Assembly (NCBI RefSeq): GCF_000039765.1
Contig: NC_004459.3
Span: 3,226,104 to 3,258,103, forward strand
Direction of reading: 5' to 3'
DNA: 32,000 bases
Source: Vibrio vulnificus CMCP6
GTDB taxonomy: Bacteria > Pseudomonadota > Gammaproteobacteria > Enterobacterales > Vibrionaceae
Under the pieces are notes generated by a model, which did not search any database, was not told the DNA's origin, and worked only from the letters and a program-made list of their open reading frames with translations. Shown here one piece after another: positions 9,936 through 32,000 of this stretch; positions within the stretch are counted from its first letter, which is position 1; each line of letters opens with the position of its first letter. The position numbers and the translations under genes are program-made.

Positions 9936-10020
<85 letters not shown>

Positions 10021-10040
10021 TATTCTTCGTAAGAATCGAA

Positions 10041-10307: not shown

Positions 10308-10338
10308 TTTATGATGACTAAATCGAACGACGTTAGGC

Positions 10339-11388: not shown

Positions 11389-11417
11389 TTGACGTATATA
11401 GTTGACAAATTTAGAAT
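11389..11417 (+). promoter_or_regulatory. Candidate sigma70 promoter for the TetR / MFS-acyltransferase operon
   Basis: TTGACG (11389-11394), 17 nt, TAGAAT (11412-11417), about 33 nt upstream of the TetR start. A short GAAC-GTT-GTTC inverted repeat follows and could be an operator. Confidence 0.35.
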
Positions 11418-11449
11418 ATCGAACGTTGTTCAATTTGTAGTACGAAAAA

Positions 11450-12040: not shown

Positions 12041-12054
12041 TACAAGGAACTTTC

Positions 12055-13929: not shown

Positions 13930-13952
13930 GCGTTCAGATTATCTGAACGCTT
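13928..13952. terminator. Perfect 10-bp inverted repeat right after the fusion gene; a weak terminator or a binding site
   Basis: AAGCGTTCAG / ATTAT / CTGAACGCTT overlapping the stop codon. The following tract (GTTCAAAT) is not a good U-run. Confidence 0.35.
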
Positions 13953-14027
13953 GTTCAAATCATTAAGACTTTCTGATCTCATCGACTCAGCTATACTCGC
14001 GCTTTCACTTAATAAAACGCAATCACT

Positions 14028-14963: not shown

Positions 14964-14973
14964 ACTGACTCAA

Positions 14974-15150
14974 TTAAGCTGAGTGATGGGAATGAGGCAA
15001 AGTGGTGGTTGCTTGGCGTCGATAGTCAAAAACGATGGCGACAACAATCAAAAAGGCCGTCAATTCGGCCAAAGAGCGATAGAGGCCATCACTCAGCAAA
15101 GCAATACCGAGCTGCAAAACTGCCGTTGCTATTAAGATCCCTCTTACCAT
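14974..15150 (-). CDS. Hypothetical small two-TM membrane protein
   Basis: The ORF-track entry spans 14974-15156. The ATG at 15150 is preceded by AAGG at suitable spacing. Two hydrophobic helices. No family recognised, so it may not be a real gene. Confidence 0.3.
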   Translation of the reverse strand: MVRGILIATAVLQLGIALLSDGLYRSLAELTAFLIVVAIVFDYRRQATTTLPHSHHSA

Positions 15151-15246
15151 CTTCAACCTTATGCCTTTTCTTTGTCATATGATGCGCAATTATTGTTGAG
15201 GGTTATAAGGTTGAGAAATTCTCTTTTTGACTAATTCATGTCGAAA

Positions 15247-16677: not shown

Positions 16678-17666
16678 TATGAATGCCACACCAATTGCTG
16701 TTCTTCTAACGAGGCGATCGGCAGCGAGCATTTCGGCCATCCCACCATTAACTGCGATTGAAACAAACTTATGGTGTCCAAGCCCGGCGTCACGTCAGGC
16801 AACTGCCATTTGGCAAAACGCGCTAACTGGGTAAGCCCTAAACTTGATTCGATACTTGAACTGATGACCGCTTTGATGCCCAAAGAGTGCGCTTTTTTTA
16901 TCAGCGCAATACAACGAGGCAATGAACCGATCAACGTTGGTTTGATGACGATCGCTTTCACGCCCGTGAGATCGTCAAGCGCAAAGTCAGGTCGGTGCAG
17001 CGCGTGTTGTAAGGTTTCATCCCATGCAATCGCAATCCCGGTGTTGATAGCAAAAGAGAGGCTATCTCCGGGCTTTTGGCAGGGCTCTTCGATAAACACG
17101 ATCCGCTGACGCAAAGAGGGGGTGATGTACTTGGCAAATTGCTGCGCTTTTTCTGGCGTCCAAGCACGATTGGCATCCAGTCGCAGTGTGAGATCTGGGA
17201 TGCTTTCCAAGAACAAGTTGACCAGCATGCCATCACGAATTGGTTCGTACAAACCCACTTTGACTTTGGCGACTTTCTCACCTTGCATCGCATTCAATAC
17301 CGGAATGAGTTCATCGGGATCGCCAGTACAAAGTGGCGCGGGCAAATAGTGCCCATCGCGAGGCAACTTCCCTTCCAACTCATACATCGCGGTGGAAAGA
17401 CCAAACGCAACGGAAGGCAGTAAGGCGTCGTAATCGATGGGATGATCGGTGTTCATCCACAACTCAAGCTGTGCTTGCGCTTCAATGCCCGCTTCTTCTA
17501 TGGTCTCTAAGCTAAATCCTGGTAATGGTGAAACTTCGCCATACCCTTTTTGACCGTTCATGTTCAGCTCAATAATGTAGCCAACACGCTCCGTCAGTTT
17601 CTCATCTCTTAGCACAACACCGCTGTCCATTGGCAAGGTGTAGCGGTACAGTTTGGCTGATTTCAT
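16677..17666 (-). CDS. menC: O-succinylbenzoate synthase MenC (enolase superfamily)
   Basis: 329 aa. The size and its position between menB and menE fit. Metal-ligand regions typical of the MR/MLE subgroup are present (LRLDANRAW, FIEEP, IAWDE). Confidence 0.85.
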   Translation of the reverse strand: MKSAKLYRYTLPMDSGVVLRDEKLTERVGYIIELNMNGQKGYGEVSPLPGFSLETIEEAGIEAQAQLELWMNTDHPIDYDALLPSVAFGLSTAMYELEGKLPRDGHYLPAPLCTGDPDELIPVLNAMQGEKVAKVKVGLYEPIRDGMLVNLFLESIPDLTLRLDANRAWTPEKAQQFAKYITPSLRQRIVFIEEPCQKPGDSLSFAINTGIAIAWDETLQHALHRPDFALDDLTGVKAIVIKPTLIGSLPRCIALIKKAHSLGIKAVISSSIESSLGLTQLARFAKWQLPDVTPGLDTISLFQSQLMVGWPKCSLPIASLEEQQLVWHS

Positions 17667-17805
17667 AGCTGTCCCTTAATACTTCATCGACAAATTGCTT
17701 TACTGAAAGTCAGACTCTTTATGAATGAGACCGTCAATCGCAAAGAAAAGTCCCTAAACGATGCAGATTCTGTGCCTCTGCATCGTTCTCACATTGGGAA
17801 GAAAA

Positions 17806-18672
17806 TTAAGGGTTGCGTGGAAACTTATTGAAGTCTGGACGACGTTTTTCGTTGAACGCATTGCGCCCTTCTTGCCCTTCATCCGTCATATAGAACATCA
17901 TTGTGGCGTTGCCCGCCAACTCTTGAAGACCCGCTTGACCATCGCAATCGGCGTTCAATGCTGCTTTAAGGCAACGCAATGCCATCGGGCTGTGCTGAAG
18001 TACTTCACGACACCAACGTACGGTTTCTTTCTCTAATTCTTCTACAGGGACGACCGTGTTCACTAGCCCCATATCCAACGCTTCTTGAGCGTCATAAAAA
18101 CGACATAGGAACCAAATCTCACGTGCTTTTTTCTGTCCGACAATACGTGCCATGTATGACGCACCCCAACCGCCATCAAACGAGCCCACTTTTGGTCCAG
18201 TTTGACCAAATTGCGCGTTTTCAGCCGCGATGGTTAAGTCACACATCATATGAAGAACGTGGCCGCCACCGACAGCCCAACCAGCGACTGACGCAATAAC
18301 AGGTTTTGGACAAGTACGAATATCACGTTGGAAATCAAGAACATTCAGGTGATGAACACCAGAGTCATCTTTATAGCCGCCGTAATCACCGCGGATCTTC
18401 TGGTCGCCGCCAGAGCAGAACGCGTCTTCACCGAGACCGGTCAAAATGATCACGCCCACGTTAGAGTCATAGCGAGCATCCGCCAGTGCTTGGATCATTT
18501 CTTTGACGGTTTGCGGGCGAAATGCATTACGCACTTGAGGGCGTGCAATGGTGATTTTTGCAATGCCGTCTTCCGACTTGTGGTACTGAATATCTTCATA
18601 GGGCGCACTACAGTCATTCCAATTAACTGGTGCGTAAAGTTCTGCTTCAGTGATGCCTACTGTTTTAGCCAT
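17806..18672 (-). CDS. menB: 1,4-dihydroxy-2-naphthoyl-CoA synthase MenB
   Basis: Strong match to E. coli MenB from [21 protein letters not shown]...[18 protein letters not shown] onward. The ORF track extends to 18789, but the first 39 codons have no MenB counterpart. The ATG at 18672 gives 288 aa, against 285 aa in E. coli. Confidence 0.93.
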
Positions 18673-18697
18673 GGTGGTTCCCATTGTTCTAATGTGT

Positions 18698-19489
18698 TTA
18701 TCGTTGATAAACCGAATGAATAAACGCACGGACGATGTCAGCAAAAGCGTTAGGCTGCTCTTGATGGACATTGTGGCCCGCATTGTCAACTATCGAGCAG
18801 GACAAGCCACTCTGCCTCGCTAGTTCTTGAAATTTTGTGTCTTTTTCGCCGCATACATAGTGCAAAGGCACGCTAGAGCGTTGCAACTGAGGTAAAAGAT
18901 TCGGTTGCTTCGCCAAAGAAGTGGCTAATAGCATCTCCGCGACTGACGCACCAAGATTAGCACTTCGTTTTGCTATCAAGGTTTGTTTTTGCGCATGGTT
19001 TAGTGAAGAAAATACCCCTTGCTGATACCAATCGGCTAATACCTGTTCAATGGGCTCTTCACGAAATCGCTTCGCCCAATGGCTATCACTGATCCAGCGT
19101 TGCTGCTTTTCTTGCTCACTGACTAAACCAAAATTGCCGCCTTCAATCAAAGCTCCGCGTAGATTCAGTGCGGCAAAGGCGTGCTCAACAAGCCCCTGCA
19201 TGGCAATTCGGCCTCCCATTGAATAACCAATCAGAATACATGGGCGTTGGGCCAATTGCTGCTCAATCACCATCGCCACTTGCTGTGCACTCTCCGCAGC
19301 ACTACTTGGGGCAATGCCAACACTTTGGCCGTGCCCTGCAAGGTCAATCGTTAGGGTTGGATATTCTTTGAGTGAACATTGCGTGGCACGCCAATCTTCT
19401 GCACTACCCAATAAACCGTGCAGTAACACCAACACGGGCGAACGGCTATCACCATTGCCTTGCTGATAATTAAACGAGAGAACGGACAT
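18698..19489 (-). CDS. menH: SHCHC synthase MenH (alpha/beta hydrolase)
   Basis: 263 aa. Nucleophile elbow GYSMGGRIA and [13 protein letters not shown], as in E. coli MenH (YfbB). It overlaps the menD 3' end by 20 nt. Confidence 0.85.
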
Positions 19490-21164
19490 GATCAGCCAAT
19501 TGTTTTATGTGCTGTGACGCTTGGTTTGGCGGCGTGTTGACTTCAACCAATAAAGCGCCACAGCCGTGTGCAAAATGGCCAACAATTCGTTCTGTTAGCT
19601 CCGTCATCGATGTGGGGCACACGTAATCGAGGCCAAATTGTTTGGCGGCGAATTCGAAACGGTAGCCATGAGGCATTTGGTATAACGCTTGTTTTTGCTG
19701 CGGTGGTACCGGTAATAAATCAAAAATCGCGCCGCCGTCGTTGTTGGTCACCACGATCACCACCGGAGTCTCTTGATGGCTATACAGCGCCAGCGAATTC
19801 AAGTCATACAACGCAGACGTGTCACCAATCATCAATAACATTGGGTTGGATCTTGCCCTTTGCACGCCACTTGCTGTGGCAAAGAGACCATCAATCCCCG
19901 AGGCGCCACGATTGGTAAATGTTTCGACACCATGCAATTGACCAACCATATCGACCATACGCACAAACAAGCTATTGCCTAAAAACAGATCGGCGCTGCC
20001 CACAAGTGAGGATAAGTGCAGAGCAATCATCATTTCACACAGGCTGCTTTGGGCGATCTCTCTGGCTTGCTTGTTCACCTCCGCACTAAAACGCGGCAAT
20101 TCATTCGCCCACGCTACAGGCTGCACTTCGCGGTTGGTCACCACGTTCAACCACGCTGCGATTGAGCAGACAAAATGCTGTTGAGGTAGGTGGCTCTGGT
20201 TGTCTCGCTCAAAATCCGGTGAAACGTACCAATAATCGCAGCCAGCTTGCACTTGCTGCTCTAACCATTGGTGTAAACGCTTCGAGACCAAACGACGGCC
20301 AAACTGGATGATCAAATCACATTGGGACAGCTGTGCACGAGCTGCAGGATTTTGCAACCAGATATCAAAACCACTCCAATCAGAAGTGGTTCCGGATTGT
20401 GGGTCACACAGCACAGGCCATCCCATTTGCGCCCCAAATTGATGGGCCTGTTTGGCTTCTTGCAGTGTTACACTGCCAATCACCACCACGCCTTTACGTT
20501 GTTCAATTTCTGCAAGAGAAGGCGGCATGGGGAGCGGCATTTGTTTGTTACTGTAGATGCCCCCCTCTGCACGCCACACATCCACCGTATCGATATAACT
20601 CTGGTAAATCGACTTTGGTGCATTTGAATAAAGCGGCTCAGGAAAGGGACAGTTGATGTGCACCGCATGGCCACTGACCGCCTGTTGATGAAGCACTTGA
20701 TCCACAGATGTCAGTAACCAGTTTAATGACGTCTGCGTGTTTGGACTGGGCAAGTTTAATGAAGCACAAACATGATTTGAGAAGATGCCTTGCTGTGCGA
20801 TCGCCTGATTGGCCCCGCATCCCACCAGCTCGATCGGTCGATCTGCGGTCAGTAATACCAGTTTCTCCCCGGTTAAGCCTGCCTCTGCCACTGCAGGCAA
20901 AAGATTGGCCACCGCAGTGCCCGATGTCACCACCACCGCCACAGGCCGCTGGCTGGCTTTGGCTAAACCAAGTGCAAGAAAACCCAATCCACGCTCATCA
21001 AAATGCGTATGCAACTTCAAACGGGTATGGGCATTCGCTTCGAGGGCGAGCGGGGTTGAACGTGAGCCAGGTGCGACACAAACATCTCGTACGCCAAAGC
21101 GGTACAATTCTTCAAACAGCGTTTCACACCAAATACGATTCAATACGGCTTGATCGTGGTTCAT
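19470..21164 (-). CDS. menD: SEPHCHC synthase MenD (ThDP-dependent)
   Basis: 564 aa. [25 protein letters not shown] and [10 protein letters not shown] match E. coli MenD almost residue for residue. Confidence 0.93.
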
Positions 21165-22714: not shown

Positions 22715-23929
22715 ATGCAAAATATCGGGATGTCGTCAAAACTCGACAATGTCTGCTATGACATCAGGGGTCCTGTACTCAAACATGCTAAGCGCATGGA
22801 AGAAGAAGGGCATAAAATCCTTAAGCTAAATATTGGAAACCCCGCCCCATTTGGCTTTGACGCCCCTGATGAAATTCTGGTCGATGTGATTCGTAACTTG
22901 CCTACGTCGCAAGGTTACTGCGATTCAAAAGGCATCTACTCAGCACGTAAAGCCGTGGTACAGCACTACCAACGCAAAGGCATTCGTTCTCTCGATGTGG
23001 AAGATGTCTACGTGGGCAATGGCGTCTCTGAGCTGATCGTGATGGCCATGCAAGCACTGCTTAACAACGGTGACGAAATGCTGGTTCCAGCACCAGACTA
23101 CCCATTATGGACCGCTGCCGTGGCACTTTCGGGTGGTAAAGCGGTGCATTACCTCTGTGATGAGCAAGCAGACTGGTACCCTGATCTGGATGATATGCGC
23201 AAAAAAATCACGCCTAAGACTCGTGGTATTGTACTCATCAACCCAAATAACCCAACGGGTGCCGTCTACAGCCGCGATTTTCTACTGGAAGTGATCGAAA
23301 TCGCGCGTCAACACAAGCTGATGATTTTCGCCGATGAAATCTACGACAAGGTGTTGTACGACGGAGCGGTTCACACCTCAGTCGCGACCTTAACTGACGA
23401 TGTGCTGGTGATGACGTTTAACGGCCTATCAAAAGCCTATCGCGTATGTGGTTTCCGTGGTGGTTGGATGTTTATGACCGGACCAAAACATTTAGCGCAA
23501 GGCTATGTTAACGGTTTGGACATGCTGGCTTCGATGCGCCTGTGCGCCAACGTGCCAATGCAACACGCGATTCAAACTGCCTTGGGGGGCTATCAGAGCA
23601 TCAATGAATTGATCTTACCTGGCGGTCGTTTATTGGAGCAACGTGATCGCGCATGGGAGTTGATCAACCAAATCCCTGGCGTTTCATGTGTGAAACCAAA
23701 AGGCGCAATGTATCTGTTCCCTAAGATTGATACGAAAAAATACAGCATCAAAGATGACCAAAAGATGGTTTTTGATTTTCTCGTTCAAGAAAAAGTGTTG
23801 TTAGTGCAGGGTTCTGGATTCAACTGGCCAAAACCAGACCACTTCCGCATTGTCACTCTACCGCATATCGAAGATCTCGAAACCGCCATTGGCCGCTTTG
23901 AACGTTTCTTACATGGCTATAGCCAGTAG
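22715..23929 (+). CDS. alaA: Glutamate-pyruvate aminotransferase AlaA (YfbQ)
   Basis: 404 aa. Near-collinear identity with E. coli AlaA as I recall it (SSKLDNVCYDIRGPVL, LKLNIGNPAPFGFDAPDEILVDVIRNLP, NGLSKAYRVCGFR with the PLP lysine). It sits upstream of yfbR, as in E. coli. Confidence 0.92.
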   Translation: MQNIGMSSKLDNVCYDIRGPVLKHAKRMEEEGHKILKLNIGNPAPFGFDAPDEILVDVIRNLPTSQGYCDSKGIYSARKAVVQHYQRKGIRSLDVEDVYVGNGVSELIVMAMQALLNNGDEMLVPAPDYPLWTAAVALSGGKAVHYLCDEQADWYPDLDDMRKKITPKTRGIVLINPNNPTGAVYSRDFLLEVIEIARQHKLMIFADEIYDKVLYDGAVHTSVATLTDDVLVMTFNGLSKAYRVCGFRGGWMFMTGPKHLAQGYVNGLDMLASMRLCANVPMQHAIQTALGGYQSINELILPGGRLLEQRDRAWELINQIPGVSCVKPKGAMYLFPKIDTKKYSIKDDQKMVFDFLVQEKVLLVQGSGFNWPKPDHFRIVTLPHIEDLETAIGRFERFLHGYSQ

Positions 23930-23957
23930 TAATTATTGTTAAACTTTCATATGCTTA

Positions 23958-23985
23958 AAGGTGTTCCATAGGAACACCTTTTTTC
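23958..23985 (+). terminator. Rho-independent terminator after alaA
   Basis: AAGGTGTTCC / ATA / GGAACACCTT followed by TTTTT. Confidence 0.7.
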
Positions 23986-24009
23986 TAACTGCGTTTTGAG
24001 GTGACTATC

Positions 24010-24243
24010 GTGCAAGAAAGCCATTTTTTCGCTCATTTGGCTCGTATGAAGCTAATTCAACGCTGGCCATTAATGCGCTCTGTCTCCAGTGAGAATGTCT
24101 CTGAGCACAGTTTGCAGGTCGCCTTTGTTGCCCATGCTTTAGCGCTGATCAAAAACAAGAAGTTTGGTGGTCACATCAATGCAGAGCGGGTGGCCGTGTT
24201 GGCCATGTATCACGATAGTAGTGAGGTTTTGACTGGTGATTAG
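24010..24243 (+). pseudogene. yfbR: 5' fragment of yfbR (HD-domain 5'-deoxynucleotidase), truncated by an insertion
   Basis: The product (M)[22 protein letters not shown]...[15 protein letters not shown]...[13 protein letters not shown] aligns with residues 1 to about 78 of the 199-aa E. coli YfbR. It then hits a TAG at 24241-24243 supplied by the foreign DNA. The likely start is the GTG at 24010, with GAGG 9 nt upstream. The ORF track starts at 24001. Confidence 0.85.
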
Positions 24244-24284
24244 TTCGTTTTTCTAATATGAGTAAACCAGTGACTTAGTTCGTT
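24236..24284 (+). repeat. Direct repeat TTAGTTCGTT (x2, 35 bp apart) at the element terminus
   Basis: GTGATTAGTTCGTT at 24236-24249 spans the junction. GTGACTTAGTTCGTT lies at 24270-84. The exact 10-mer is at 24240-24249 and 24275-24284. Confidence 0.6.
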
Positions 24285-24326
24285 AATACACATAAGTTAC
24301 CATTAGACTATTGTAAGGATATTCAG

Positions 24327-24926
24327 TTGAAAAAATCACAAAGTACATTCATGGCATGGGTGACACGTATGCCATTAATAAAACGCTGGGCATTAATGCA
24401 CTGCTTTCAAGAAGAAAATGTTTCAGAACATTCTCATCAGGTTGCGGTAATAGCTCACTTATTAACTGTCATTAAAAACAAACGATATGGCGGTAACTTA
24501 AATCCAGAAAAAGCTGCAGTTACCGCCATTTATCATGAAATATCAGAAACAAAACTTCAGGATATAAATTCAAAAACCAAGTACCACAGCCCTGAATTTA
24601 CAGCAGCATTTAAAAAACTTGAAGATATTGCAGAAAAAGAATGTTTAGAAACATTACCAGAGGATTTACGTAATGAGTTCTCAGATTTACTTGTTCAAAA
24701 AAATGTAGACGCTGAATATAAAGCGATTGTAAAAGCAGCAGATATTCTATCAGCTTATATAAAGACTCTAAACGAACTTCGATTTAACAATGATGAATTT
24801 TTACATGTCAAAAAAGGACTTGATCCAAAAATTAAAAGACTTATTACTGAAATGCCTGAAGTAAAAGATTTTATGGATGTATTTTGTGATAGTTGCACTA
24901 CTACGTTTGACAAAATATCAGGATAA
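24327..24926 (+). CDS. Element-encoded full-length YfbR-like HD-domain nucleotidase paralog
   Basis: 199 aa with a TTG start and an AAGGA Shine-Dalgarno 7 nt upstream. It is collinear with YfbR over its whole length (MPLIKRWALM, ENVSEHSHQVA, YGGNLNPEKAAV, KAADILSAYIK, ELRFNNDEF). It is strongly diverged from the host fragment and has AT-rich codon usage. Confidence 0.8.
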   Translation: MKKSQSTFMAWVTRMPLIKRWALMHCFQEENVSEHSHQVAVIAHLLTVIKNKRYGGNLNPEKAAVTAIYHEISETKLQDINSKTKYHSPEFTAAFKKLEDIAEKECLETLPEDLRNEFSDLLVQKNVDAEYKAIVKAADILSAYIKTLNELRFNNDEFLHVKKGLDPKIKRLITEMPEVKDFMDVFCDSCTTTFDKISG

Positions 24927-25244
24927 ATAATACCTCTCGGTATCTATAGAGTTTTAAAAAAAAGCAGAATCTGTAATCACGCATAACTTCATCACACATG
25001 CGTTATCAATATGAGTAACGTATGTAAAATGTGTTTTAACTCAAACTTTTACATAAAATCAACACATCAAAATTTACATACAACGCCAAGTTTGGTAACG
25101 TAAAATTGTAAAGGTTATCGTCACCTAGCCCGACTCAAGGCAAAGACGATAGTTTTGAATAGACAAAGTAATCACTTTTCAGTGGCATTTTGCATGAGAG
25201 TCGCATAGCAAACTTCAATGCTGCACTACGACCAAGGTGAAACT

Positions 25245-25829
25245 ATGTCTAAAAACCATTCATTACCTCAAATTTCTCCATCCGACATCTTTAAGTTAAA
25301 AGCAAAACAATTTTCATTGTTAATAACCAAAATATCAGGTTTTAGTAATATACCGTCAAAAAAAAGGTATGATTGGTTAGCTCATGCTCTAGGTTATAAA
25401 GACCACAATGATTTATTACACTCTAATTATCTTAGAAGAATTACTGATAACCGTAATATCCTAAATATTTTTAGTAATAAAAAACAACGAGAAGACATAA
25501 TTAATATTTTCTGCTCTAACCTTCCTGACGTATCAAAGAAACATATAAGTGATGCTACTATTTTAATGGCTATTATAGAAAAGCCAGAATATAAAAAGTT
25601 ACTATTTTCACTAATACATAGTGGAATTAGATACCCCTCAATTTCTGGGTTAATTACACCTAAAAATAATAAAATAATCACATATAAATTAAACATCCCA
25701 AGAATAAAATCAGCACACCAAAGCCTACCAAATAACACCATCAACAAAAACCATATATTTTCGTTTTCAAAATTTCGTGAAGATTATGTTAAAAACACAT
25801 TATCAGAAAACTTAACGACAAATAAATGA
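25245..25829 (+). CDS. Hypothetical protein, lead gene of the recombinase operon
   Basis: The ORF track starts at 25218. The ATG at 25245 has an AAGGTGA Shine-Dalgarno. The stop overlaps the next start (ATGA at 25826-25829). No family recognised. Confidence 0.5.
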   Translation: MSKNHSLPQISPSDIFKLKAKQFSLLITKISGFSNIPSKKRYDWLAHALGYKDHNDLLHSNYLRRITDNRNILNIFSNKKQREDIINIFCSNLPDVSKKHISDATILMAIIEKPEYKKLLFSLIHSGIRYPSISGLITPKNNKIITYKLNIPRIKSAHQSLPNNTINKNHIFSFSKFREDYVKNTLSENLTTNK

Positions 25830-27703
25830 AATATAGATTTGGTGAAATGGGAAATAAAAAAGTATCTATCGGAAACTTATCCGCAAAAATAATAAGTGGG
25901 AAAAACATAAGTATCGGTGATAAAAGTGCACTTGGTGAATTAATTAAATATTTAAAAAAAGAGAATAAAAGTAAATTAATAACAACCAACTTTGATGATG
26001 TTGAATTTCTTAAATTTCTGAAATATTTATCTACGATTAAAACGACAAAACGCCGATATCAAATTTCTGTTGCAGTAAGACGCCTTATTGCTGAAGAATT
26101 TCACAACGGAGTTGTTTTCACTATATCACCCGACGAATGGCCTGTTCCGGAAAAACCGAGACCAACGCATTTTCAACCACTAAGCTCAGAACAAATAGTC
26201 AAATTGGAAGAATTTCTAAGAGAAGAAATTGACGTTGCTTATAAGAAAGATGAAATTTTTCAGAGTGCCCGAAAATCAGGAGTGGTTAGCAACAAAATCG
26301 GCATCGACTTTTGGCACCGAGCTAACCCAGATCCAGCGTTACCTAGATTTACTGACTGGCATGAAAGCCTAAAAAATGCCATTGCTACAATATATTCTAT
26401 TCATCCAAATTTTCCTAATAATGCATCAAATGAAGATTTGGCAGAAAATGGAAAATTTTATATTCCCAAAGACCTTACATATACAAATCTTACAACAACA
26501 TTTAAAACCCTCGCAAAGAGAATGGTCATGCAAAACATTCCTGGGTACACTTCATTTGTATTAGAAGCCCCAGAACTAACATATACAAAATTAATATCAT
26601 ATATCTACCCGGATTTACGTGAACTGATCGCTATTAAAATAGCGATTTGCTTCGAAACTGGTTGGTCACCCGATATCACCGAACGAATAGATCCAGATGA
26701 TTATATTTATGACCCAATTCCTATGGAAAATGACTGGGTATTTATTAAATCAACAAAAGCAAAGGGAGCTTCTGTAAATAAGAAAACAAGACTTCGCGAA
26801 CAGAGATTGATGATTCATCCTAGTTCAAAAACTGATAAATACAGTGCGTATAATTTAATAAAATTACTAGTAAAAAGAACTTCAACATTACGAAAAGGAC
26901 ATTTATACGAGAAAGCAACTACAGATCTTGACGTTCACCCTGCATTCATAAGTTTAGTAGTAAATGCTGGTCTAAAATTTGTAGCGCATTACCCATGCCG
27001 TAAAGGTGTTAATAGAAGTTCAAGTAGCAAGTTCATTGAAAAAAGTATTGGGTATAAGTTGGATCTAAGACGACTCAGGCCAACTCGATTGTATCTAAAT
27101 GAAAAAGAAAAAAAGCTGCCGCTATTGCTTCAAGTCGCGCTATTTGGGCACTCAACATCTGCAATTACTGACGAGGTTTATAAAGACAACTCCCACTTCC
27201 AACAGCTAAGAAATGACAAACTAGCAATGGAATTAGATAGTATATTCGACAGTATTCGTGATGGTTCTTTCAAAGGAAAACTAGTTCCATTAAAACAAAG
27301 AACATGTATCAAAAAAAAGATAATAAATATCTATACAAACCACAATGGCGAGTCACCATTAGCAATCTGTAATAACCCATACTACCCCACCTGGCACTTG
27401 TCTGATGGTGGACAAATTCCCAGATCAAATAAACCATGCAAACAATTTAACAAATGTCTTACGTGTCAACAATCATCCGTTACCAGTGACAACATTCCAT
27501 TTGTAGTAGATAGATTCCTCTATTTAGATCAGAAACGACGCTCAATGCGAAGTGACCAGTTTGATTGCATGTATAGGGAAGAATATGAAGCAGCAAAAGA
27601 AGTCATCGAATCATGGCCTTATCAAGAAGATATTCAAGAAGCTGAGTTGAGAAACGCTGTTGATGGATACCTACTTCCACCTATTATTTCAGAGAGTAAC
27701 TAA
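25826..27703 (+). CDS. Large (625 aa) tyrosine-recombinase-fold protein with an apparently incomplete catalytic set
   Basis: Box II-like LRRLRPTRLY and LFGHSTSAITDEVYKD (His and the candidate Tyr nucleophile) are present. The box I position reads FETGWSPDI, with Ser where the TGxR arginine is expected. A C-terminal extension of about 170 aa carries a Cys cluster. Confidence 0.65.
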   Translation: MKYRFGEMGNKKVSIGNLSAKIISGKNISIGDKSALGELIKYLKKENKSKLITTNFDDVEFLKFLKYLSTIKTTKRRYQISVAVRRLIAEEFHNGVVFTISPDEWPVPEKPRPTHFQPLSSEQIVKLEEFLREEIDVAYKKDEIFQSARKSGVVSNKIGIDFWHRANPDPALPRFTDWHESLKNAIATIYSIHPNFPNNASNEDLAENGKFYIPKDLTYTNLTTTFKTLAKRMVMQNIPGYTSFVLEAPELTYTKLISYIYPDLRELIAIKIAICFETGWSPDITERIDPDDYIYDPIPMENDWVFIKSTKAKGASVNKKTRLREQRLMIHPSSKTDKYSAYNLIKLLVKRTSTLRKGHLYEKATTDLDVHPAFISLVVNAGLKFVAHYPCRKGVNRSSSSKFIEKSIGYKLDLRRLRPTRLYLNEKEKKLPLLLQVALFGHSTSAITDEVYKDNSHFQQLRNDKLAMELDSIFDSIRDGSFKGKLVPLKQRTCIKKKIINIYTNHNGESPLAICNNPYYPTWHLSDGGQIPRSNKPCKQFNKCLTCQQSSVTSDNIPFVVDRFLYLDQKRRSMRSDQFDCMYREEYEAAKEVIESWPYQEDIQEAELRNAVDGYLLPPIISESN

Positions 27704-29646
27704 TGAAACTAATAAACTTTGGCGAGATCAACATTGATAAAGACATTCAAATATCAGAAGAAATAAATTTCAAATATAATGTTTGGAGAATTCAATATTC
27801 ACAATCAGAACATATATCACTAAACTTTGAAAATTTTAGTGAAAATAATAATGTATCTAACTATAACGATTTGGTAATTTTAATAAAAATACTAACTTAT
27901 TATGAATTCCCTAAATTATTCAATTTAAACATAACCAGTTGGTTGACAACAAATCATCGCCATTCATATTTTATTAATGTCGCTAAAAATTTTCTCCTTG
28001 ATTCTGGATTTACATCTAGAAAAATGCTTTCTAATATTACTTTAAGTCAATGTAAAGGATATATTGAAGATTGCATTTCACTATTTAAAAAAAGAATACC
28101 AGGTTCAATAACAAAACTGGATAGTGCAATATATTTTTTTGACAGATGGAGTGAATTATCTCACAAAAAAAGGTTACCAAAAGAATTCAGATTTGAATAC
28201 GATAAGTATGATATTTTAGATAAAGAAAAACGTGCTGAACTAAGAACTCTCAAAGATGAACAATGCGATCCATGGCAACCATTGGATTCAGAAATTGTAA
28301 AATCCGTTTTCGATGAATCATTAAAATATATACAAACTTTATCTCCAACAATTATTAAATGCTCCAATTTAGTAAAAGAAAAAGGACGACGAGACGATGG
28401 TTCTTCTTGGGGAACCATAAGAAAAGATGGTCGTACAAAACATATTTTTAAAGTACTCGAGAACATGGAAATTCCAGACATATATGATGGAGTTAAACTT
28501 TTCAATTTTAAGCCTGTAACCAAAGAGGTTACTTCTTTAGGTTACGCCAGTGGGAAGCAAGATAGAACAACAATACCAACCAATGAAATACGGCCAGCAG
28601 TTATAAAACTAAAACGAAGTTGTATATTTATTATAGGGTTATTTACTGGTTTAAGGCGTCGTGAGATTGCATCACTAAAGGCTAAGCCAGCATATAAAAA
28701 AAATGATTGTTTATACTTAGATATTATACGTTTTAAGCAAGCCGCCGATTCAGAACAAGAAGGTGAAGAAGATAGTATCCCTATACCAAAAATTGTTGGT
28801 GATGCTATTGATATATTAATTGAATTATTTGCTATCAGCCGAAAGACATTAAATAGCCAATATCTTTTGGTAACAGATATGCCTTCTAAAAAGAATTTCG
28901 AAAAAATAAAAATTGATACAATTACAAAAGACATTAGAAAAATAGTCGCTGATATGACAGATGTAACAGATGCTCACCCACACCAGCTGCGAAAAACTAT
29001 CGCATGGTTACTGATTTCTAGAAGTGAAAAAAACATTGATCTTATTCGTCAGCTCTTTGGTCATAAAAGTTATGGTATGACACTTCGATATATAATGCGC
29101 AACGAATTAATGGTAGAGAGTGTAATAGAGTTGTTAGAACACAACTACACAGAAGATCTACAAGAAATATTCGAGGCTATCAATAATAATAATACAGCGG
29201 GAGATCTATCAGATAAAATCAAAAAACGTATGGAAGAGCAAATTTATCCAGGTAGCATATTGGTAACCGATATTGAATCCTATGTGCGTGAATCACTAAA
29301 AGCTGGTATACCTTTGTTCGTATCGAGAGTCCCCATTGGTGGTTTCTGCATAAACGCGGGTAATGAAGATTCTATCCCACCATGTATGATGAAAACCAAT
29401 TCAAAAAGACCATGCGTTGATTTCTGTAACTACAAAGTGTGTGATTACCTAATTTTTAATGATGAATCAATTTCTAATATTCACTCTCAAATTAACTACT
29501 ACAAACAAAAGTTAAGCTATCTAGATGAATCAAGCAATGAAAAAGTTGTGACTTATTATCAAAAAGAAATTCTTGAACACAGAGAGCTTCTTGAGAGATT
29601 AGAAAATAAGAAAAATAACCAGAATTTTAAAAAGGCTCAATTATGA
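27703..29646 (+). CDS. Large (647 aa) tyrosine recombinase/integrase
   Basis: Canonical motifs: box I GLFTGLRRREIASL, box II AHPHQLRKTIAW, and LFGHKSYGMTLRYIM (His and Tyr nucleophile). It has a TAATG overlap with the upstream gene and a C-terminal Cys-rich extension. Confidence 0.85.
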   Translation: MKLINFGEINIDKDIQISEEINFKYNVWRIQYSQSEHISLNFENFSENNNVSNYNDLVILIKILTYYEFPKLFNLNITSWLTTNHRHSYFINVAKNFLLDSGFTSRKMLSNITLSQCKGYIEDCISLFKKRIPGSITKLDSAIYFFDRWSELSHKKRLPKEFRFEYDKYDILDKEKRAELRTLKDEQCDPWQPLDSEIVKSVFDESLKYIQTLSPTIIKCSNLVKEKGRRDDGSSWGTIRKDGRTKHIFKVLENMEIPDIYDGVKLFNFKPVTKEVTSLGYASGKQDRTTIPTNEIRPAVIKLKRSCIFIIGLFTGLRRREIASLKAKPAYKKNDCLYLDIIRFKQAADSEQEGEEDSIPIPKIVGDAIDILIELFAISRKTLNSQYLLVTDMPSKKNFEKIKIDTITKDIRKIVADMTDVTDAHPHQLRKTIAWLLISRSEKNIDLIRQLFGHKSYGMTLRYIMRNELMVESVIELLEHNYTEDLQEIFEAINNNNTAGDLSDKIKKRMEEQIYPGSILVTDIESYVRESLKAGIPLFVSRVPIGGFCINAGNEDSIPPCMMKTNSKRPCVDFCNYKVCDYLIFNDESISNIHSQINYYKQKLSYLDESSNEKVVTYYQKEILEHRELLERLENKKNNQNFKKAQL

Positions 29647-30743
29647 CTTTAAAGGAAAAGGATGTAGAAAATGTAATTGATATCCTTATCTCATCAGATT
29701 CTTTTAATGTAAAAAAACTAGCTGAGTATCTTAAGGTTTCTCGGTCCTATTTATATAAAGAATTCCGACATCTACTACCTAAACCAGCAAGTATCACCCA
29801 AAAAAGAATAGAAAATGCTATTTTACGAATTAGACAACGGACAGGTCGCTCTCTCTTAACTATTTCGGAAGTAGCAATAGAATCAGGAGTAAGCAGGCAA
29901 AGTATTTCTAGAGATTACAGTCATCTTTTATCTATGATAAAAGGTAAAAAATCTGTTGATATAATTCCTAATTCAACAACAGAATCAGAAGAAAAAATTA
30001 AATTCCTAGAAGATCAAATTTCTTCTCTTAGCATGAAAAATGAAGAATATGAAGAGAATATTAAGTTAAAGGTTTACTCCGATATGATGAAGCAAGATCT
30101 TGCTTCATTTACAGCCCAAAAGGACAAAGCAAATGCTATCAAGCTACAAAATCAAAATGATGAAATAATAGCTATTAATAAACAACAAATATCAGAACTA
30201 GCGGATCTACGATCGCAATTATCAGAATTAAAAAGAAAGTCTAAAACAATCATTCCCGGGTGTAATATTATTGCTCATATCAAACCAGATTATAGTAGTA
30301 TTTCATCAAAAATGGATTTAAAAACTTCAATGGAGATTTTCTTCGAAATAGAAGAAAAAAACATAAACGATGCCATTGATATCTGCTTCACTTCACAACC
30401 TAATTCAGTAATATTTTTTCAACCTTTTCTTAGTTGCAACTTTGAAAGTCTTGGTATTACTTTATCAAAAGGTGATGTTATTCTTATTGAAAGTAATTTT
30501 CCTCTTGCCAAGCAATTCAAAAAACTTTTACTAAATATAAGCGAAATTCCTGTCCATTCAATATCATGTAAAGGTCACGAATTACAATTGGCAAATTTCT
30601 ATTGTCGAAAGAATCACACCAATAAATTTAGCGAAGAGTTTATAGATAAGTTATATAAACTAATATCTTATCCAGATCAGAATGATGGTTTTAAATCTGT
30701 AACGCTCGTAAAGCCTAGCCCTTCTATTTCGGCGGTAAAATAG
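29643..30743 (+). CDS. Putative recombination accessory/DNA-binding protein: two HTH-like segments, a coiled coil and an unknown C-terminal domain
   Basis: 366 aa. VKKLAEYLKVSRSYLYKEF and ISEVAIESGVSRQSISRDY look like HTH units. Heptad-like stretches follow (EEKIKFLEDQISSLSMKNEEYEENIKLK and ISELADLRSQLSELKRK). It has an ATGA overlap with the upstream integrase. Confidence 0.5.
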   Translation: MTLKEKDVENVIDILISSDSFNVKKLAEYLKVSRSYLYKEFRHLLPKPASITQKRIENAILRIRQRTGRSLLTISEVAIESGVSRQSISRDYSHLLSMIKGKKSVDIIPNSTTESEEKIKFLEDQISSLSMKNEEYEENIKLKVYSDMMKQDLASFTAQKDKANAIKLQNQNDEIIAINKQQISELADLRSQLSELKRKSKTIIPGCNIIAHIKPDYSSISSKMDLKTSMEIFFEIEEKNINDAIDICFTSQPNSVIFFQPFLSCNFESLGITLSKGDVILIESNFPLAKQFKKLLLNISEIPVHSISCKGHELQLANFYCRKNHTNKFSEEFIDKLYKLISYPDQNDGFKSVTLVKPSPSISAVK

Positions 30744-30744
30744 T

Positions 30745-32000
30745 ATGCTTATTGAACGGAAATTAATTACATATCCATATGAAAGAACCGATTACTCTCA
30801 TTACATCCTAGTTTTAAAAATAAATGATAAGATAATATTGATGAGTGCTGTAAATCTATTTTTAAAAGAAAGGACATACAGAAGTTTTAAAACCAGCGAA
30901 CGGTATTCCAATATTTTAAAACGTTTCTTTCATTTTATAATAAAAAATAATGCCAACATAAGCCAAAATTTCTGGCGAGAAGTTACGGATAGCGATATTC
31001 GTGAATGGCAAGGATATATAATAAAAAAGAGAGATAATGAACACAAGAAAAGGCCAAAGGATGATACTATATATTTAGATGCTTGTATCGTTTTCGACTT
31101 CTATTCTTGGGCAGAAAGGAACCATTTTCCGGTTTTAATAAATTCAACAAGTGTTGACTGGAAATTTAATTTTCGAGATGAAAGCAAAATTTTATCAAGT
31201 AAAGGCATCCTATCAGGAAGTGTTCCAGATTATGCAAACATTGATATTCGTAACACACGAAGAAAGCAATTTAGAAGCTTTAATAATAAATCTGATACTA
31301 TAATGGAGTTTGAAAATATCATAGCTTTAGTAACATCATATAGTGATCTAGTTTATCCAGTAATGTTTCTTTTAGCACTAGCTACTGGTATGCGTGAACA
31401 GGGAGTATGCTCTTTCCCTTATATTGGAATCGGTGAAAATGATCATATTAGAACATATCCTGAAATAAAAAATTTGGTTCCCAAAGACCCCAAAGGAAAA
31501 ACTCCCAAAACATTTCCTTTCACTACTATAGAAAAAGGGAATAAAAAAAGAACTTTAAAGGTCAACATGTCTGCCTGGAAAATAATATGCAAAACATACT
31601 TACCACTTTATTACCAAAGAAAAAAATTATTTAGACAGAAATTTCCTCATAAAAACGATAATGCTGTATTCTTCTTGAATAAGGTCGGTAAACCCGTAAC
31701 ACCCAAAATGGTGTCAGATGCGACGAACCGAGCAAAAAAGAAACTTAATGACCAGCACTTTCATTGGTCATTTCACAGTACAAGGGACTGGTATGCCACA
31801 ATGTTTATTATCAAACACTTAACTCGAGAACAGATCAATGTAGCACATTATGACGCAGCTATTGAAGATGCTTTACGCAAACAACTAGGACACAGTGATA
31901 TCAGAACAACATACATGCATTACATCCGTGTAGCTTCTCTTCTGTTGGCAACACGTAATGGTGAATTAGATTTTTCGTTGGGGAATTCTGATGATTTTTG
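30745..32000 (+). CDS. Tyrosine recombinase/integrase, truncated at its 3' end by the window edge
   Basis: Not in the ORF track because it has no stop in the window. My translation from the ATG at 30745 is open to 32000 (418 codons). Motifs: LALATGMREQG (box I Arg), WSFHSTRDWYAT (HxxR) and LGHSDIRTTYMHYI (His and Tyr). It starts 1 nt after the previous stop. Confidence 0.85.
   Translation, partial: MLIERKLITYPYERTDYSHYILVLKINDKIILMSAVNLFLKERTYRSFKTSERYSNILKRFFHFIIKNNANISQNFWREVTDSDIREWQGYIIKKRDNEHKKRPKDDTIYLDACIVFDFYSWAERNHFPVLINSTSVDWKFNFRDESKILSSKGILSGSVPDYANIDIRNTRRKQFRSFNNKSDTIMEFENIIALVTSYSDLVYPVMFLLALATGMREQGVCSFPYIGIGENDHIRTYPEIKNLVPKDPKGKTPKTFPFTTIEKGNKKRTLKVNMSAWKIICKTYLPLYYQRKKLFRQKFPHKNDNAVFFLNKVGKPVTPKMVSDATNRAKKKLNDQHFHWSFHSTRDWYATMFIIKHLTREQINVAHYDAAIEDALRKQLGHSDIRTTYMHYIRVASLLLATRNGELDFSLGNSDDF

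What the first reader, a model, noticed from the sequence alone, without database searches (positions are those of the whole stretch)
24327..24926. The element carries its own diverged full-length yfbR paralog just inside the junction
- **Position:** 83 bp after the junction, in the same orientation as the broken host gene, the element encodes a complete 199-aa YfbR homolog. It is collinear from the N-terminus (MKKSQSTFMAWVTRMPLIKRW vs MKQSHFFAHLSRLKLINRW in E. coli) to the C-terminus.
- **Not a duplication:** it is highly diverged from the host fragment at both protein and DNA level, so it is not a target duplication.
- **Expression:** I saw no convincing terminator between the host yfbR promoter and this gene. 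It could therefore be read from the host promoter, functionally replacing the gene the element destroys.
- **How it differs from known cases:** elements that repair their target usually supply only a short replacement end (for example in prfC, dusA or trmE). A complete substitute gene is different.
- **Motif change:** the metal-binding HD dyad reads HE here (AIYHEISE vs host AMYHDSSE).
- **Other possible roles:** a nucleotidase acting on dNMPs could also serve the element itself, for example in nucleotide-pool manipulation or anti-phage activity. This is speculation.
Basis: partly seen in the sequence, partly recalled or inferred. Interest (0 to 1): 0.72.

Follow-up and report, generated by a model that had tools for sequence, protein, structure and literature searches.

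The report
Defence island carrying its own yfbR
A mobile phage-defence island has split the Vibrio vulnificus nucleotidase gene yfbR and brings a complete, diverged working-looking copy of that gene with it; this is real, but it was already reported for a related Vibrio lentus island in 2021.

Summary
The window is V. vulnificus chromosome (98.4% identical to an element-free strain) up to base 24241. There, canonical yfbR is cut after codon 77 (..EVLTGD). A 31% G+C element follows. Its first gene (24327-24926) is a full 199-aa YfbR-family protein with HE in place of HD.

This is not new. Hussain et al. 2021 described V. lentus phage-defence element PDE1 as truncating yfbR while encoding its own divergent copy. 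I recovered that V. lentus element, and it has the same gene order as the window. An island in recA that carries its own recA is an older parallel.

What I add:
- About ten diverged relatives cut yfbR at the same base, and all carry the copy.
- The ends are 8-bp inverted repeats around a 6-bp spacer.
- The 3' half of yfbR survives at the far end, next to an anti-phage dGTPase gene.
- The copy is under purifying selection.
- HE is common in the family (17 of 40 representatives).
- The copy belongs to a clade that is the ordinary resident yfbR in most of the 139 species genomes that encode it, and island-borne copies do not form their own clade.

Verdict: a new member of a known kind, of modest interest.

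The parts
22715..23929 (+). Host alaA (aminotransferase), the conserved left neighbour of yfbR.
   Evidence: Pfam Aminotran_1_2, E 6.5e-51. It lies upstream of yfbR or the HE-type gene in nearly all related loci.
23957..23987 (+). alaA intrinsic terminator: an 11-bp stem followed by a U-tract, about 25 nt before the yfbR start.
   Evidence: RNA fold -18 kcal/mol, z -3.3, 0 of 200 shuffles as stable.
24010..24243 (+). 5' fragment of the host canonical yfbR (codons 1-77). The TAG stop is supplied by the first bases of the element.
   Evidence: PF12917 positions 1-73, E 4e-33. Collinear with the intact V. vulnificus yfbR in L102 up to base 24241.
24234..24239 (+). 6-bp crossover spacer TGGTGA at the left junction (attL).
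   Evidence: Element-free V. vulnificus and a second V. vulnificus insertion (L088) read GGGGGA here. The Vibrio sp. WZ-1 element has TGGCGA at attL and TGGTGA at attR.
24240..24249 (+). Outer copy of the left-end motif TTAGTTCGTT. This is the terminal inverted repeat and the first bases of the element.
   Evidence: Direct repeat D1. The same motif abuts GAT in all diverged relatives. It occurs inverted (CGAACTAA) at the right end in L100.
24275..24284 (+). Inner copy of the left-end motif, 35 bp from the outer copy.
   Evidence: The paired motif is found upstream of the HE-type gene only in element-type loci, never in resident-type loci.
24327..24926 (+). Element-borne full-length YfbR-family 5'-deoxynucleotidase with the HE variant (the finding).
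   Evidence: PF12917 E 5e-62, NF003009 252.6 bits, 2PAQ E 1.6e-41. The residues matching E. coli R18, W19, H33, H68, E72, D77 and D137 are invariant across the clade, and D69 is replaced by E. dN/dS 0.05.
25218..25829 (+). orf203, of unknown function. It is present only in this sub-lineage of the element.
   Evidence: No Pfam, NCBIfam, PHROG or PADLOC hit. Homologous ORFs of 194-195 aa occur in L082 and L083, and none in the V. lentus, P. marinum or WZ-1 elements.
25826..27703 (+). First large recombinase-like core gene (625 aa).
   Evidence: Conserved in all elements that carry the module (50-95% identity). Its C-terminal pattern ..RRLRPTR..GHS..T..Y resembles a tyrosine recombinase (my reading). 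The distant homolog on plasmid pPUV-7 is annotated as a site-specific integrase.
27703..29646 (+). Large tyrosine recombinase (647 aa).
   Evidence: Pfam Phage_integrase E 2e-10, phrog_216 integrase E 4e-24. Similar to the pPUV-7 700-aa integrase, E 7e-32.
29643..30743 (+). 366-aa protein with weak helix-turn-helix matches. Probably an accessory DNA-binding factor.
   Evidence: Only sub-threshold HTH hits. Conserved in position in all elements.
30745..32000 (+). Second ordinary-size tyrosine recombinase. It is cut off by the end of the window (418 codons are visible; the homolog in L083 is 429 aa).
   Evidence: Open reading frame to the window end; Pfam Phage_integrase E 1.4e-9. Collinear with L082 and L083.

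Best explanation
**What it is.** The window holds the left 7.8 kb of a site-specific integrative phage-defence island. It belongs to the family published as PDE1 of Vibrio lentus and sits in V. vulnificus yfbR.

**Shown**
- The island's recombination module comprises a 625-aa recombinase-like protein, a 647-aa tyrosine recombinase, a 366-aa protein with weak helix-turn-helix matches and a roughly 429-aa tyrosine recombinase.
- The island is inserted at one fixed position of canonical yfbR, between codons 77 and 78 (..ACN GGN GAY | YTN CCN..).
- Its ends are 8-bp inverted repeats (TTAGTTCG / CGAACTAA) flanking a 6-bp spacer.
- Insertion splits the gene into a 77-codon 5' stub and a 117-codon 3' stub. 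Neither stub holds all the metal ligands.
- Directly inside the left end, in the orientation of the broken gene, the island carries a complete yfbR of a different subtype (the 'HE type', about 42% identical to the host protein).
- This copy keeps every residue needed for dNMP hydrolysis, apart from a conservative Asp-to-Glu change in the metal dyad.
- The copy reads ..CTT CAG GAT ATA AAT.. where the target sequence would be.

**Inferred**
- The copy replaces the 5'-deoxynucleotidase activity that insertion destroys, so the host pays little for carrying the island.
- Because the target sequence is absent from the copy, the island cannot insert into its own gene.
- The copy is transcribed from upstream host sequence or from the left end of the island. 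In most relatives it would be the first gene of an operon with the recombinase genes.
For: **A published match**
- Hussain et al. [quoted passage not shown] It carries a type I restriction-modification system, and deleting it changes phage sensitivity.
- The V. lentus loci L093-L098 have the same order: alaA, 77-aa stub, 199-aa HE gene, then genes of 614, 650, 367 and 427 aa, then cargo. The HE protein is 82% identical and the recombinase region 67% identical in nucleotides.

**Mobility**
- Near-identical elements (HE protein 97-99% identical) sit in V. vulnificus, V. nigripulchritudo and V. crassostreae. Identity jumps from 73% to 98.8% exactly at the junction.
- An element-free V. vulnificus site shows the uninterrupted gene.

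**Fixed target and ends**
- About ten diverged elements have the same cut after GAT, followed by TAGTTCG, TATTTCG or TAATTCG.
- The right end was recovered in Vibrio sp. WZ-1. The element is 20.8 kb and carries inverted copies of the motif. The 6-bp spacers are TGGCGA at attL and TGGTGA at attR. The 3' stub of yfbR is retained just before dgt.

**The copy is a core gene under constraint**
- It is present in all relatives.
- Its divergence ranks the relatives in the same order as the recombinases do (L016, then L019, then L024).
- dN/dS is 0.05, and dS is saturated with dN 0.06-0.17 in more distant pairs.

**Catalytic residues**
- The counterparts of E. coli R18, W19, H33, H68, E72, D77 and D137 are invariant, and D69 is E. 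Their roles are described.
- HE occurs in 17 of the 40 best family representatives, including sequences that are otherwise canonical-like.
- The HE type is the only yfbR found at the alaA-yfbR-dgt locus in most species that have it.

**Defence cargo in relatives**
- HsdR; Lamassu LmuA, LmuB and LmuC plus BovA.
Against: - There are no expression data. No sigma-70-like promoter was found on the + strand between 23800 and 24400. The host yfbR promoter is not located, and a strong alaA terminator lies 25 nt before the yfbR start.
- No enzymology exists for any HE-type protein. In E. coli YfbR, substitutions of the metal ligands inactivate the enzyme. Whether Glu works in this position is inferred only from conservation.
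- To my knowledge yfbR is dispensable in E. coli, so a need for compensation is assumed rather than shown.
- The cargo and right end of this particular copy lie outside the window.
- In this sub-lineage an extra 0.9 kb containing orf203 separates the copy from the recombinase genes.
Confidence: 0.8

Rival explanations
1. The yfbR copy is kept for the island's own benefit. It might manipulate the deoxynucleotide pool as part of phage defence, or act during transfer. On this reading it does not mainly compensate the host.
For: - The island family carries defence systems.
- The insertion site lies beside an anti-phage dGTPase gene.
- The protein matches a phage family annotated as dATP triphosphohydrolase (phrog_7076, E 2.4e-23).
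Against: - No PADLOC model matches the protein.
- The same subtype is the ordinary resident yfbR in most of the species that have it, with no island attached.
- It scores far above the cut-off of the NCBIfam 5'-deoxynucleotidase equivalog.
- Residues that in E. coli YfbR specify deoxyribonucleoside monophosphates are all kept.
Confidence: 0.12
2. The copy is an inactive relic, crippled by the HD-to-HE change, and is merely carried along.
For: - D69 is a metal ligand, and substitutions of the metal ligands inactivate E. coli YfbR.
Against: - Strong purifying selection: dN/dS 0.05, with synonymous sites saturated while proteins stay 75-90% identical.
- The gene is full length in every relative.
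- HE is invariant across 18 aligned clade members and occurs in 17 of the 40 best family representatives.
- The HE type is the only yfbR found at the locus in most of the 80 species genomes examined.
Confidence: 0.04
3. The HE gene is not part of the mobile element. It would be a resident gene, and the upstream stub would be a leftover of a local duplication or rearrangement.
For: - In 76 of 80 species loci the HE-type gene is resident, with no recombinases beside it.
Against: - Element-free V. vulnificus has a single canonical yfbR, and homology with the window stops at 24241.
- The spacer plus HE gene is 94-99% identical in three other host species whose flanking stubs are only about 73% identical.
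- G+C of the gene is 32% against 47% for the flank.
- The paired end motif precedes the gene only in element-type loci.
Confidence: 0.02

Closest known systems
PDE1, a phage-defence element of Vibrio lentus (Hussain et al. 2021, bioRxiv 10.1101/2021.03.26.437281; my understanding is that it was later published in Science)
   Same: - It inserts into yfbR and truncates it, and it encodes its own divergent yfbR.
- The V. lentus loci I recovered share the junction sequence, the gene order (HE yfbR followed by four recombination genes) and the presence of defence cargo.
   Different: - The host species differs (V. vulnificus).
- The HE protein is 82% identical and the recombinase region about 67% identical in nucleotides.
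- The window's lineage has an extra orf203 between the yfbR copy and the recombinases.
- The cargo of this copy is not visible in the window.
recA mobile element (RME) of V. cholerae S24 (Rapa et al., PMC4405046)
   Same: - An island that targets one site inside a housekeeping gene.
- It carries a complete, divergent copy of that gene at one end.
- It is bounded by short inverted repeats.
- The authors argue that the copy spares the host the loss.
   Different: - The target is recA, not yfbR.
- The integrase lies at the opposite end from the gene copy.
- Excision was shown to restore an intact recA.
- The recombinases were not compared here.
[quoted passage not shown] 2023, PMC10214605)
   Same: - A module with several tyrosine recombinases at the left end.
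- Imperfect terminal inverted repeats with a 6-bp spacer.
- The 6 bp at attL and attR can differ (the 'footprint').
- Hosts are Vibrionales and Alteromonadales.
- Supplementary file 8 enters 'bcp' in the cargo/description column for SE-6283, and the text reports an SE-6283 insertion into bcp.
   Different: - BLASTP finds no similarity to IntA, Tfp, IntB or Srap of SE-PaeBT2436.
- The gene order and sizes differ: 625, 647, 366 and 429 aa here against 429, 576, 679 and 154 aa.
- Copy-out behaviour was not tested.
[quoted passage not shown] 2017, PMC5385486)
   Same: - A four-gene recombination operon at one end with three integrase-like proteins.
- Site-specific insertion into or beside genes, flanked by imperfect repeats.
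- Cargo often includes restriction-modification systems.
- One P. aeruginosa pair lies at the end of a duplicated ribonucleotide reductase gene.
   Different: - The fourth protein here is 366 aa, not a small helix-loop-helix protein.
- Sequence relationship was not tested, because no GInt sequence was available to me.
Islands that rebuild only the end of their target gene (SXT in prfC, dusA islands, SGI1-type islands in trmE)
   Same: Site-specific insertion into a conserved housekeeping gene with a device that limits the damage (my own knowledge; the dusA and trmE papers are listed).
   Different: Those elements supply a short replacement end that fuses in frame to the host gene. Here the host gene stays broken and a whole second gene is supplied.
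E. coli YfbR 5'-deoxynucleotidase (PDB 2PAQ)
   Same: Same fold family and collinear over 195 residues. The metal ligands H33, H68 and D137, the residue E72, and the substrate-specificity residues R18, W19 and D77 are conserved.
   Different: About 40% identity. D69 is replaced by E. The sequence after the dyad reads SETKLQDINSKT instead of SEVLTGDLPTPV.

Membership tests
YfbR-like 5'-deoxynucleotidase (Pfam PF12917, NCBIfam NF003009) | Full-length match to the family profiles above the curated cut-offs | tested here: met
   PF12917 209.3 bits (cut-off 25.9), positions 1-181 of 182. NF003009 equivalog 252.6 bits (cut-off 122).
YfbR-like 5'-deoxynucleotidase (Pfam PF12917, NCBIfam NF003009) | H...HD...D metal-binding motif (E. 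coli H33, H68, D69, D137) | tested here: inconclusive
   H35, H70 and D139 are present. The dyad Asp is Glu (E71), so a carboxylate is retained. HE occurs in 17 of the 40 best family representatives.
YfbR-like 5'-deoxynucleotidase (Pfam PF12917, NCBIfam NF003009) | Deoxyribose-specificity residues R18, W19 and D77 | tested here: met
   R20, W21 and D79 are invariant across 18 clade members. Their roles are described.
YfbR-like 5'-deoxynucleotidase (Pfam PF12917, NCBIfam NF003009) | dNMP phosphatase activity | not testable with these tools
   Needs purified protein.
PDE1-type phage-defence element (Hussain et al. 2021) | Inserted in yfbR, truncating it | tested here: met
   The 77-codon stub ends at the junction, as shown by comparison with the empty site.
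PDE1-type phage-defence element (Hussain et al. 2021) | Encodes its own divergent yfbR | tested here: met
   Window 24327-24926, 53% identical to the stub.
PDE1-type phage-defence element (Hussain et al. 2021) | Homology and shared gene order with the V. lentus element | tested here: met
   L093-L098 have the same order. The HE protein is 82% identical and the window is collinear at 67% nucleotide identity over 26598-31985. That these loci are PDE1 itself is inferred from the species, the yfbR site and the type I restriction-modification cargo.
PDE1-type phage-defence element (Hussain et al. 2021) | Carries an anti-phage system (type I restriction-modification in PDE1) | not testable with these tools
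   The cargo lies beyond base 32000. The copy in V. nigripulchritudo (94% identical) has HsdR 3 kb further on. The WZ-1 relative has Lamassu and BovA.
[quoted passage not shown] | Core genes intA, tfp, intB and srap | tested here: not met
   No BLASTP similarity (E below 0.1) to the four SE-PaeBT2436 proteins; gene order and sizes also differ. Remote homology is not excluded.
[quoted passage not shown] | Imperfect terminal inverted repeats with a 6-bp spacer, and 6-bp differences between attL and attR | tested here: met
   In WZ-1 the ends are TTAGTTCG and CGAACTAA, with spacers TGGCGA and TGGTGA. The window's spacer differs from the V. vulnificus attB. The window's own right end was not seen.
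[quoted passage not shown] | attL x attR recombination yields circles without leaving an empty site | not testable with these tools
   Needs PCR or read-level data from a carrier strain.
GInts | ginABCD operon: three integrases plus a small helix-loop-helix protein | not tested
   The architecture is only loosely similar: three recombinase-like proteins plus a 366-aa protein with weak HTH matches. No GInt sequence was available for comparison.

The most novel reading that the evidence does not exclude
The island family may not only compensate for the gene it breaks. Over evolutionary time it may replace the host's canonical yfbR with its own HE-type allele, in place.

**What points this way**
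- Canonical and HE types are about 42% identical, yet they occupy the same alaA-yfbR-dgt slot in different Vibrio, Paraglaciecola and Enterobacterales lineages.
- Island-borne copies are scattered among resident HE genes: they were monophyletic in 0 of 100 bootstrap trees.
- The HE genes of Tatumella and Rosenbergiella sit in the exact enterobacterial yfbR slot but appear to nest within the Vibrionaceae clade. Vibrionaceae plus Erwiniaceae were monophyletic in 81 of 100 bootstrap trees, Vibrionaceae alone in only 10.
- Paraglaciecola genomes (L044, and L090 from strain T6c) show a possible intermediate: stub, end motifs and HE gene, but no recombinase genes beside them.

If this reading is right, hosts left with only the HE allele would also lack the target site and so be immune to further insertion.
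Probability: 0.2. Interest if true: 0.6.

Novelty: new member of a known kind. Interest (0 to 1): 0.3.

Why it matters
As an instance, this adds little. An island that breaks yfbR and brings its own copy is already in the literature, as are parallel cases for recA and for a thiol peroxidase.

The comparative picture is more useful.

- **Anatomy of a defence-island family.** It defines the exact target in canonical yfbR (..ACN GGN GAY | YTN CCN..), the 8-bp terminal inverted repeats, the 6-bp spacer and a four-gene recombination module. This family moves between Vibrio species and carries restriction-modification and Lamassu systems.
- **The island's copy lacks the target sequence.** This would explain why the island does not hit itself.
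- **Annotation caution.** 'HD to HE' should not be read as a sign of inactivation in YfbR-like proteins.
- **An open question.** If islands can drive replacement of a housekeeping allele across orders, that would be a clean example of a mobile element reshaping a core gene. I could not show this.

Tried and rejected
**Searches that found nothing useful**
- Megablast of the island part of the window (24244-32000) against plasmids and E. coli genomes: no match.
- Exact-protein look-ups to walk to the right end of this very element failed. The 647-aa protein is not on record, and the 366-aa protein was found only on a 2.4-kb contig.
- A protein search with the 77-aa stub returned mostly frameshift or contig-end fragments. 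Only V. crassostreae and Paraglaciecola T6c were cut at ..TGD.

**Are resident HE genes decayed islands?** I found no support:
- no canonical 5' stub;
- no 3' remnant before dgt;
- no paired end motif.

**Tests of family membership**
- SE membership by BLASTP against SE-PaeBT2436: no similarity.
- I asked whether the distant Pseudomonas pPUV-7 module also follows a duplicated target gene (a PAPS-reductase-family gene). No second copy was found.
- A profile of the 625-aa protein against PDB sequences: nothing.

**Expression**
- Promoter scan of the junction: nothing on the + strand.

**Technical**
- The first bootstrap script timed out. It was rerun with a faster distance routine.

**Not pursued**
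- Structure prediction of the HE protein. The sequence match to 2PAQ is already unambiguous, and the tool output could not resolve metal geometry.
Full report
**1. The observation**

The ORF list and sequence show an 80-codon ORF at 24001-24243. Its last 77 residues (from the GTG at 24010) are the N-terminus of a canonical YfbR and end ..[12 protein letters not shown] followed by TAG. Eighty-three bases later, on the same strand, a 199-codon ORF (24327-24926) starts with TTG, with AAGGA 8 nt upstream.

- Pfam places both in PF12917 (YfbR-like). The fragment covers profile positions 1-73. The long ORF covers 1-181 of 182 (E 5e-62).
- The long ORF passes NCBI's 5'-deoxynucleotidase equivalog model (252.6 bits, cut-off 122).
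- It aligns to the E. coli YfbR structure 2PAQ over residues 4-198 (E 1.6e-41). YHEISE lies opposite YHDASE.
- Fragment and long ORF share 53% of residues and 56% of nucleotides.
- G+C falls from about 47% to about 31% at about 24250.

**2. It is an insertion into V. vulnificus yfbR**

An element-free V. vulnificus locus (L102) has alaA, a 194-aa yfbR and, 5 bp after the yfbR stop, a dGTPase gene (dgt). The window matches this locus at 98.4% over 9.6 kb, and the match stops at base 24241.

The same element occurs in other hosts. The 83-bp spacer is 98.8% identical in V. nigripulchritudo, and the whole visible element (24244-32000) is 94% identical to the V. nigripulchritudo copy and about 92-95% identical to the V. 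crassostreae copy. It is also present in a second V. vulnificus strain (about 96% over the part that contig covers). The host stub next to it is only about 73% identical between species. The paralog therefore travels with the element.

**3. The element**

Downstream of the paralog lie:
- orf203, with no match in any library;
- a 625-aa protein with a tyrosine-recombinase-like C-terminal pattern (my reading of the alignment);
- a 647-aa tyrosine recombinase (Pfam and PHROG integrase hits);
- a 366-aa protein with weak helix-turn-helix matches;
- a further tyrosine recombinase that runs off the window end at 32000. The ORF lister therefore missed it.

More diverged relatives with the same module occur in Photobacterium marinum, P. 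sagamiensis, Vibrio sp. WZ-1 and V. lentus. Their recombinases are 50-63% identical to those of the window.

In every one the host gene is cut at the same base..ACN GGN GAT followed by TAGTTCG, TATTTCG or TAATTCG. A second copy of the 8-bp motif lies 35-36 bp further in.

For Vibrio sp. WZ-1 I recovered the other end by looking up its dgt protein.
- The element is 20.8 kb.
- Its right end carries the motif inverted, twice (..GCAACTAATGG..CGAACTAA).
- A 6-bp spacer follows, and then codons 78-194 of yfbR, directly in front of dgt.
- The spacers are TGGCGA at the left junction and TGGTGA at the right.
- In the window the left spacer is TGGTGA. Element-free V. vulnificus, and a second V. vulnificus insertion, read GGGGGA. 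The crossover region is therefore about 6 bp, and its sequence can come from the incoming element.

Inverted ends, a 6-bp spacer and non-identical spacers are the behaviour described for SEs and Tn554. However, BLASTP finds no similarity to the four core proteins of SE-PaeBT2436, and the gene order differs. The only distant homologs I found are a gene-for-gene int-int-hypothetical-int module on Pseudomonas megaplasmids.

Cargo in relatives is defensive: type I restriction-modification (HsdR) in V. nigripulchritudo and V. lentus, and Lamassu plus BovA in WZ-1.

**4. It is already in the literature**

A full-text search for yfbR plus genomic island plus Vibrio found Hussain et al. 2021. [quoted passage not shown] PDE2 does the same with a thiol peroxidase. 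PDE1 carries a type I restriction-modification system, and its deletion changes phage sensitivity.

The V. lentus loci I fetched match that description and share the architecture of the window.

The recA mobile element of V. cholerae is an older case of an island that targets a gene and carries a full divergent copy of it. For SE-6283, the SE paper's supplement enters 'bcp' in the cargo/description column, and the text reports an SE-6283 insertion into bcp.

**5. The paralog itself**

Relatives with the same YHE[IV]SETKLQD signature are encoded in 139 places in a one-genome-per-species collection. I examined 80 loci.
- 76 have no canonical stub and no recombinases.
- There the gene is simply the yfbR of the locus. 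It lies directly between alaA and dgt in Shewanella, Glaciecola and Alteromonas.
- In Vibrio it lies after alaA, with 0.7-10 kb of variable DNA before dgt.
- In Tatumella and Rosenbergiella it occupies the enterobacterial yfbR slot (alaA, the gene, then homologs that I read as yfbT/yfbV, then ackA and pta; gene names are my reading of the ORFs).
- These resident loci show none of the element's end motifs and no remnant of a canonical gene.

In bootstrapped neighbour-joining trees:
- the HE clade separates from canonical YfbR in 100 of 100 replicates;
- element-borne copies are monophyletic in 0 of 100;
- the two Paraglaciecola copies group with Alteromonadales and Shewanella residents;
- the Vibrionaceae element copies group with Vibrionaceae residents.

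The window protein is 42% identical to V. vulnificus YfbR. V. vulnificus and E. coli YfbR are 68% identical to each other.

**6. Is the copy functional?**

- Across 18 clade members, the counterparts of E. coli R18, W19, H33, H68, E72, D77 and D137 are invariant, and position 69 is always Glu. A review of HD-domain enzymes gives the roles of these residues and notes that substituting the ligands inactivates E. coli YfbR.
- dN/dS between the window and the V. crassostreae copy is 0.05. For more distant pairs, synonymous sites are saturated while dN is 0.06-0.17.
- Among the 40 best 50%-identity representatives of the whole family, 17 have HE and 23 have HD. HE also appears in sequences that otherwise look canonical (..YHEAPEVITGD..).
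- HE is therefore a common, tolerated variant and not a sign of decay.
- No anti-phage model matches the protein.

**7. How it most likely works**

*Shown:*
- site-specific insertion at codon 77/78;
- both halves of the host gene retained but separated;
- a conserved, constrained full-length yfbR of another subtype as the first gene inside the left end;
- in four of five lineages, this gene is followed within about 10-60 bp by the first recombinase gene.

*Inferred:*
- The copy restores the nucleotidase activity, which makes carriage of the island nearly free for the host.
- The copy reads ..AAA CTT CAG GAT ATA AAT.. where the target ..ACN GGN GAY YTN CCN.. would be, so the island cannot insert into its own gene.

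*Open:*
- Transcription from host sequences is plausible. No terminator-like site or stable hairpin lies between the stub and the copy.
- But the host promoter is not identified, and a strong alaA terminator lies 25 nt before the yfbR start.

**8. What remains open**

It is unclear which came first, resident HE genes or the island's copy. Three observations would fit island-driven replacement of the canonical allele:
- the scattered position of island copies in the tree;
- the apparent nesting of the Tatumella and Rosenbergiella genes inside the Vibrionaceae clade (Vibrionaceae plus Erwiniaceae monophyletic in 81 of 100 bootstrap trees, Vibrionaceae alone in 10 of 100);
- the Paraglaciecola loci that keep the stub, end motifs and HE gene but have no recombinases next to them.

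The resident loci carry no scars, and synonymous saturation limits tree resolution. I rate this reading at about 0.2.

**9. Verdict**

The finding is real and correctly read in its essentials. It is an instance of a published phenomenon in a related element: a new member of a known kind. Interest 0.3.

Noticed in passing
window 30745-32000: A fourth core gene of the element, a tyrosine recombinase (Pfam Phage_integrase E 1.4e-9), is open to the window end. ORF listing missed it for that reason. The homolog in V. crassostreae is 429 aa.
   Followed up: yes
L102 10001-11332; L100 9626-11335; L089 10600 onward: The gene directly after yfbR in Vibrio, 5-10 bp downstream, is named 'anti-phage deoxyguanosine triphosphatase' by NCBI. 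The island insertion separates it from the alaA/yfbR upstream region. In WZ-1 the right inverted repeat supplies an in-frame ATG for the 123-codon 3' yfbR stub just before it. The effect on dgt expression is unknown.
   Followed up: partly
window 24234-24239, compared with L101/L102 9636-9641 and L088: The 6 bp beside the left junction read TGGTGA in the window. Element-free V. vulnificus and another V. vulnificus insertion of the same element read GGGGGA. These are either two independent insertions or two different resolutions of the crossover region.
   Followed up: partly
window 25218-25829: orf203 has no match in any library. Together with about 0.3 kb of flanking DNA it is present only in the sub-lineage found in V. 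vulnificus, V. nigripulchritudo and V. crassostreae. It separates the yfbR copy from the recombinase genes, which are nearly contiguous in other lineages.
   Followed up: partly
L083/L084 10634-12032: An IS66-family transposase insertion lies between the yfbR copy and the orf195 gene in the V. crassostreae copies of the element.
   Followed up: no
L090 (Paraglaciecola sp. T6c, CP000388) 10001-19774; L044: Both loci have a canonical stub cut at the same ..TGD position, the paired end motif and an HE-type gene, but no recombinase genes beside them. In T6c, czc-type metal efflux genes follow. These may be decayed or rearranged relatives of the island.
   Followed up: partly
L099 (P. aeruginosa plasmid pPUV-7) 3050-10133: This plasmid carries a distant gene-for-gene homolog of the recombination module, with proteins of 784, 700, 314 and 435 aa. 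It lies a few kb from an RND efflux gene. It is distinct from the SE-PaeBT2436 core genes on plasmid pBT2436 (L103).
   Followed up: partly
L053, L056, L057: Contigs labelled Bacteroidaceae, Akkermansia muciniphila and Firmicutes carry an alaA plus HE-type yfbR pair that groups with the Succinivibrionaceae and Anaerobiospirillum copies in the tree. They are probably mis-binned metagenome contigs.
   Followed up: no
L015, L017 (Vibrio sp. MEBiC08052, V. ruber) 9900-10600: Here the HE-type yfbR is not next to alaA and has no end motifs. The Vibrio sp. WZ-1 element copy is closest to these two genes. Their context was not explored.
   Followed up: no
L002-L014, between the HE gene and dgt: In Vibrio species with a resident HE-type gene, 0.7-10 kb of DNA that differs between species lies between yfbR and dgt. 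The site looks like a hotspot for insertions even without this island.
   Followed up: partly
window 24327-24926: The protein also matches phrog_7076, annotated 'dATP triphosphohydrolase' (E 2.4e-23). YfbR-like HD hydrolases therefore also occur in phages.
   Followed up: no
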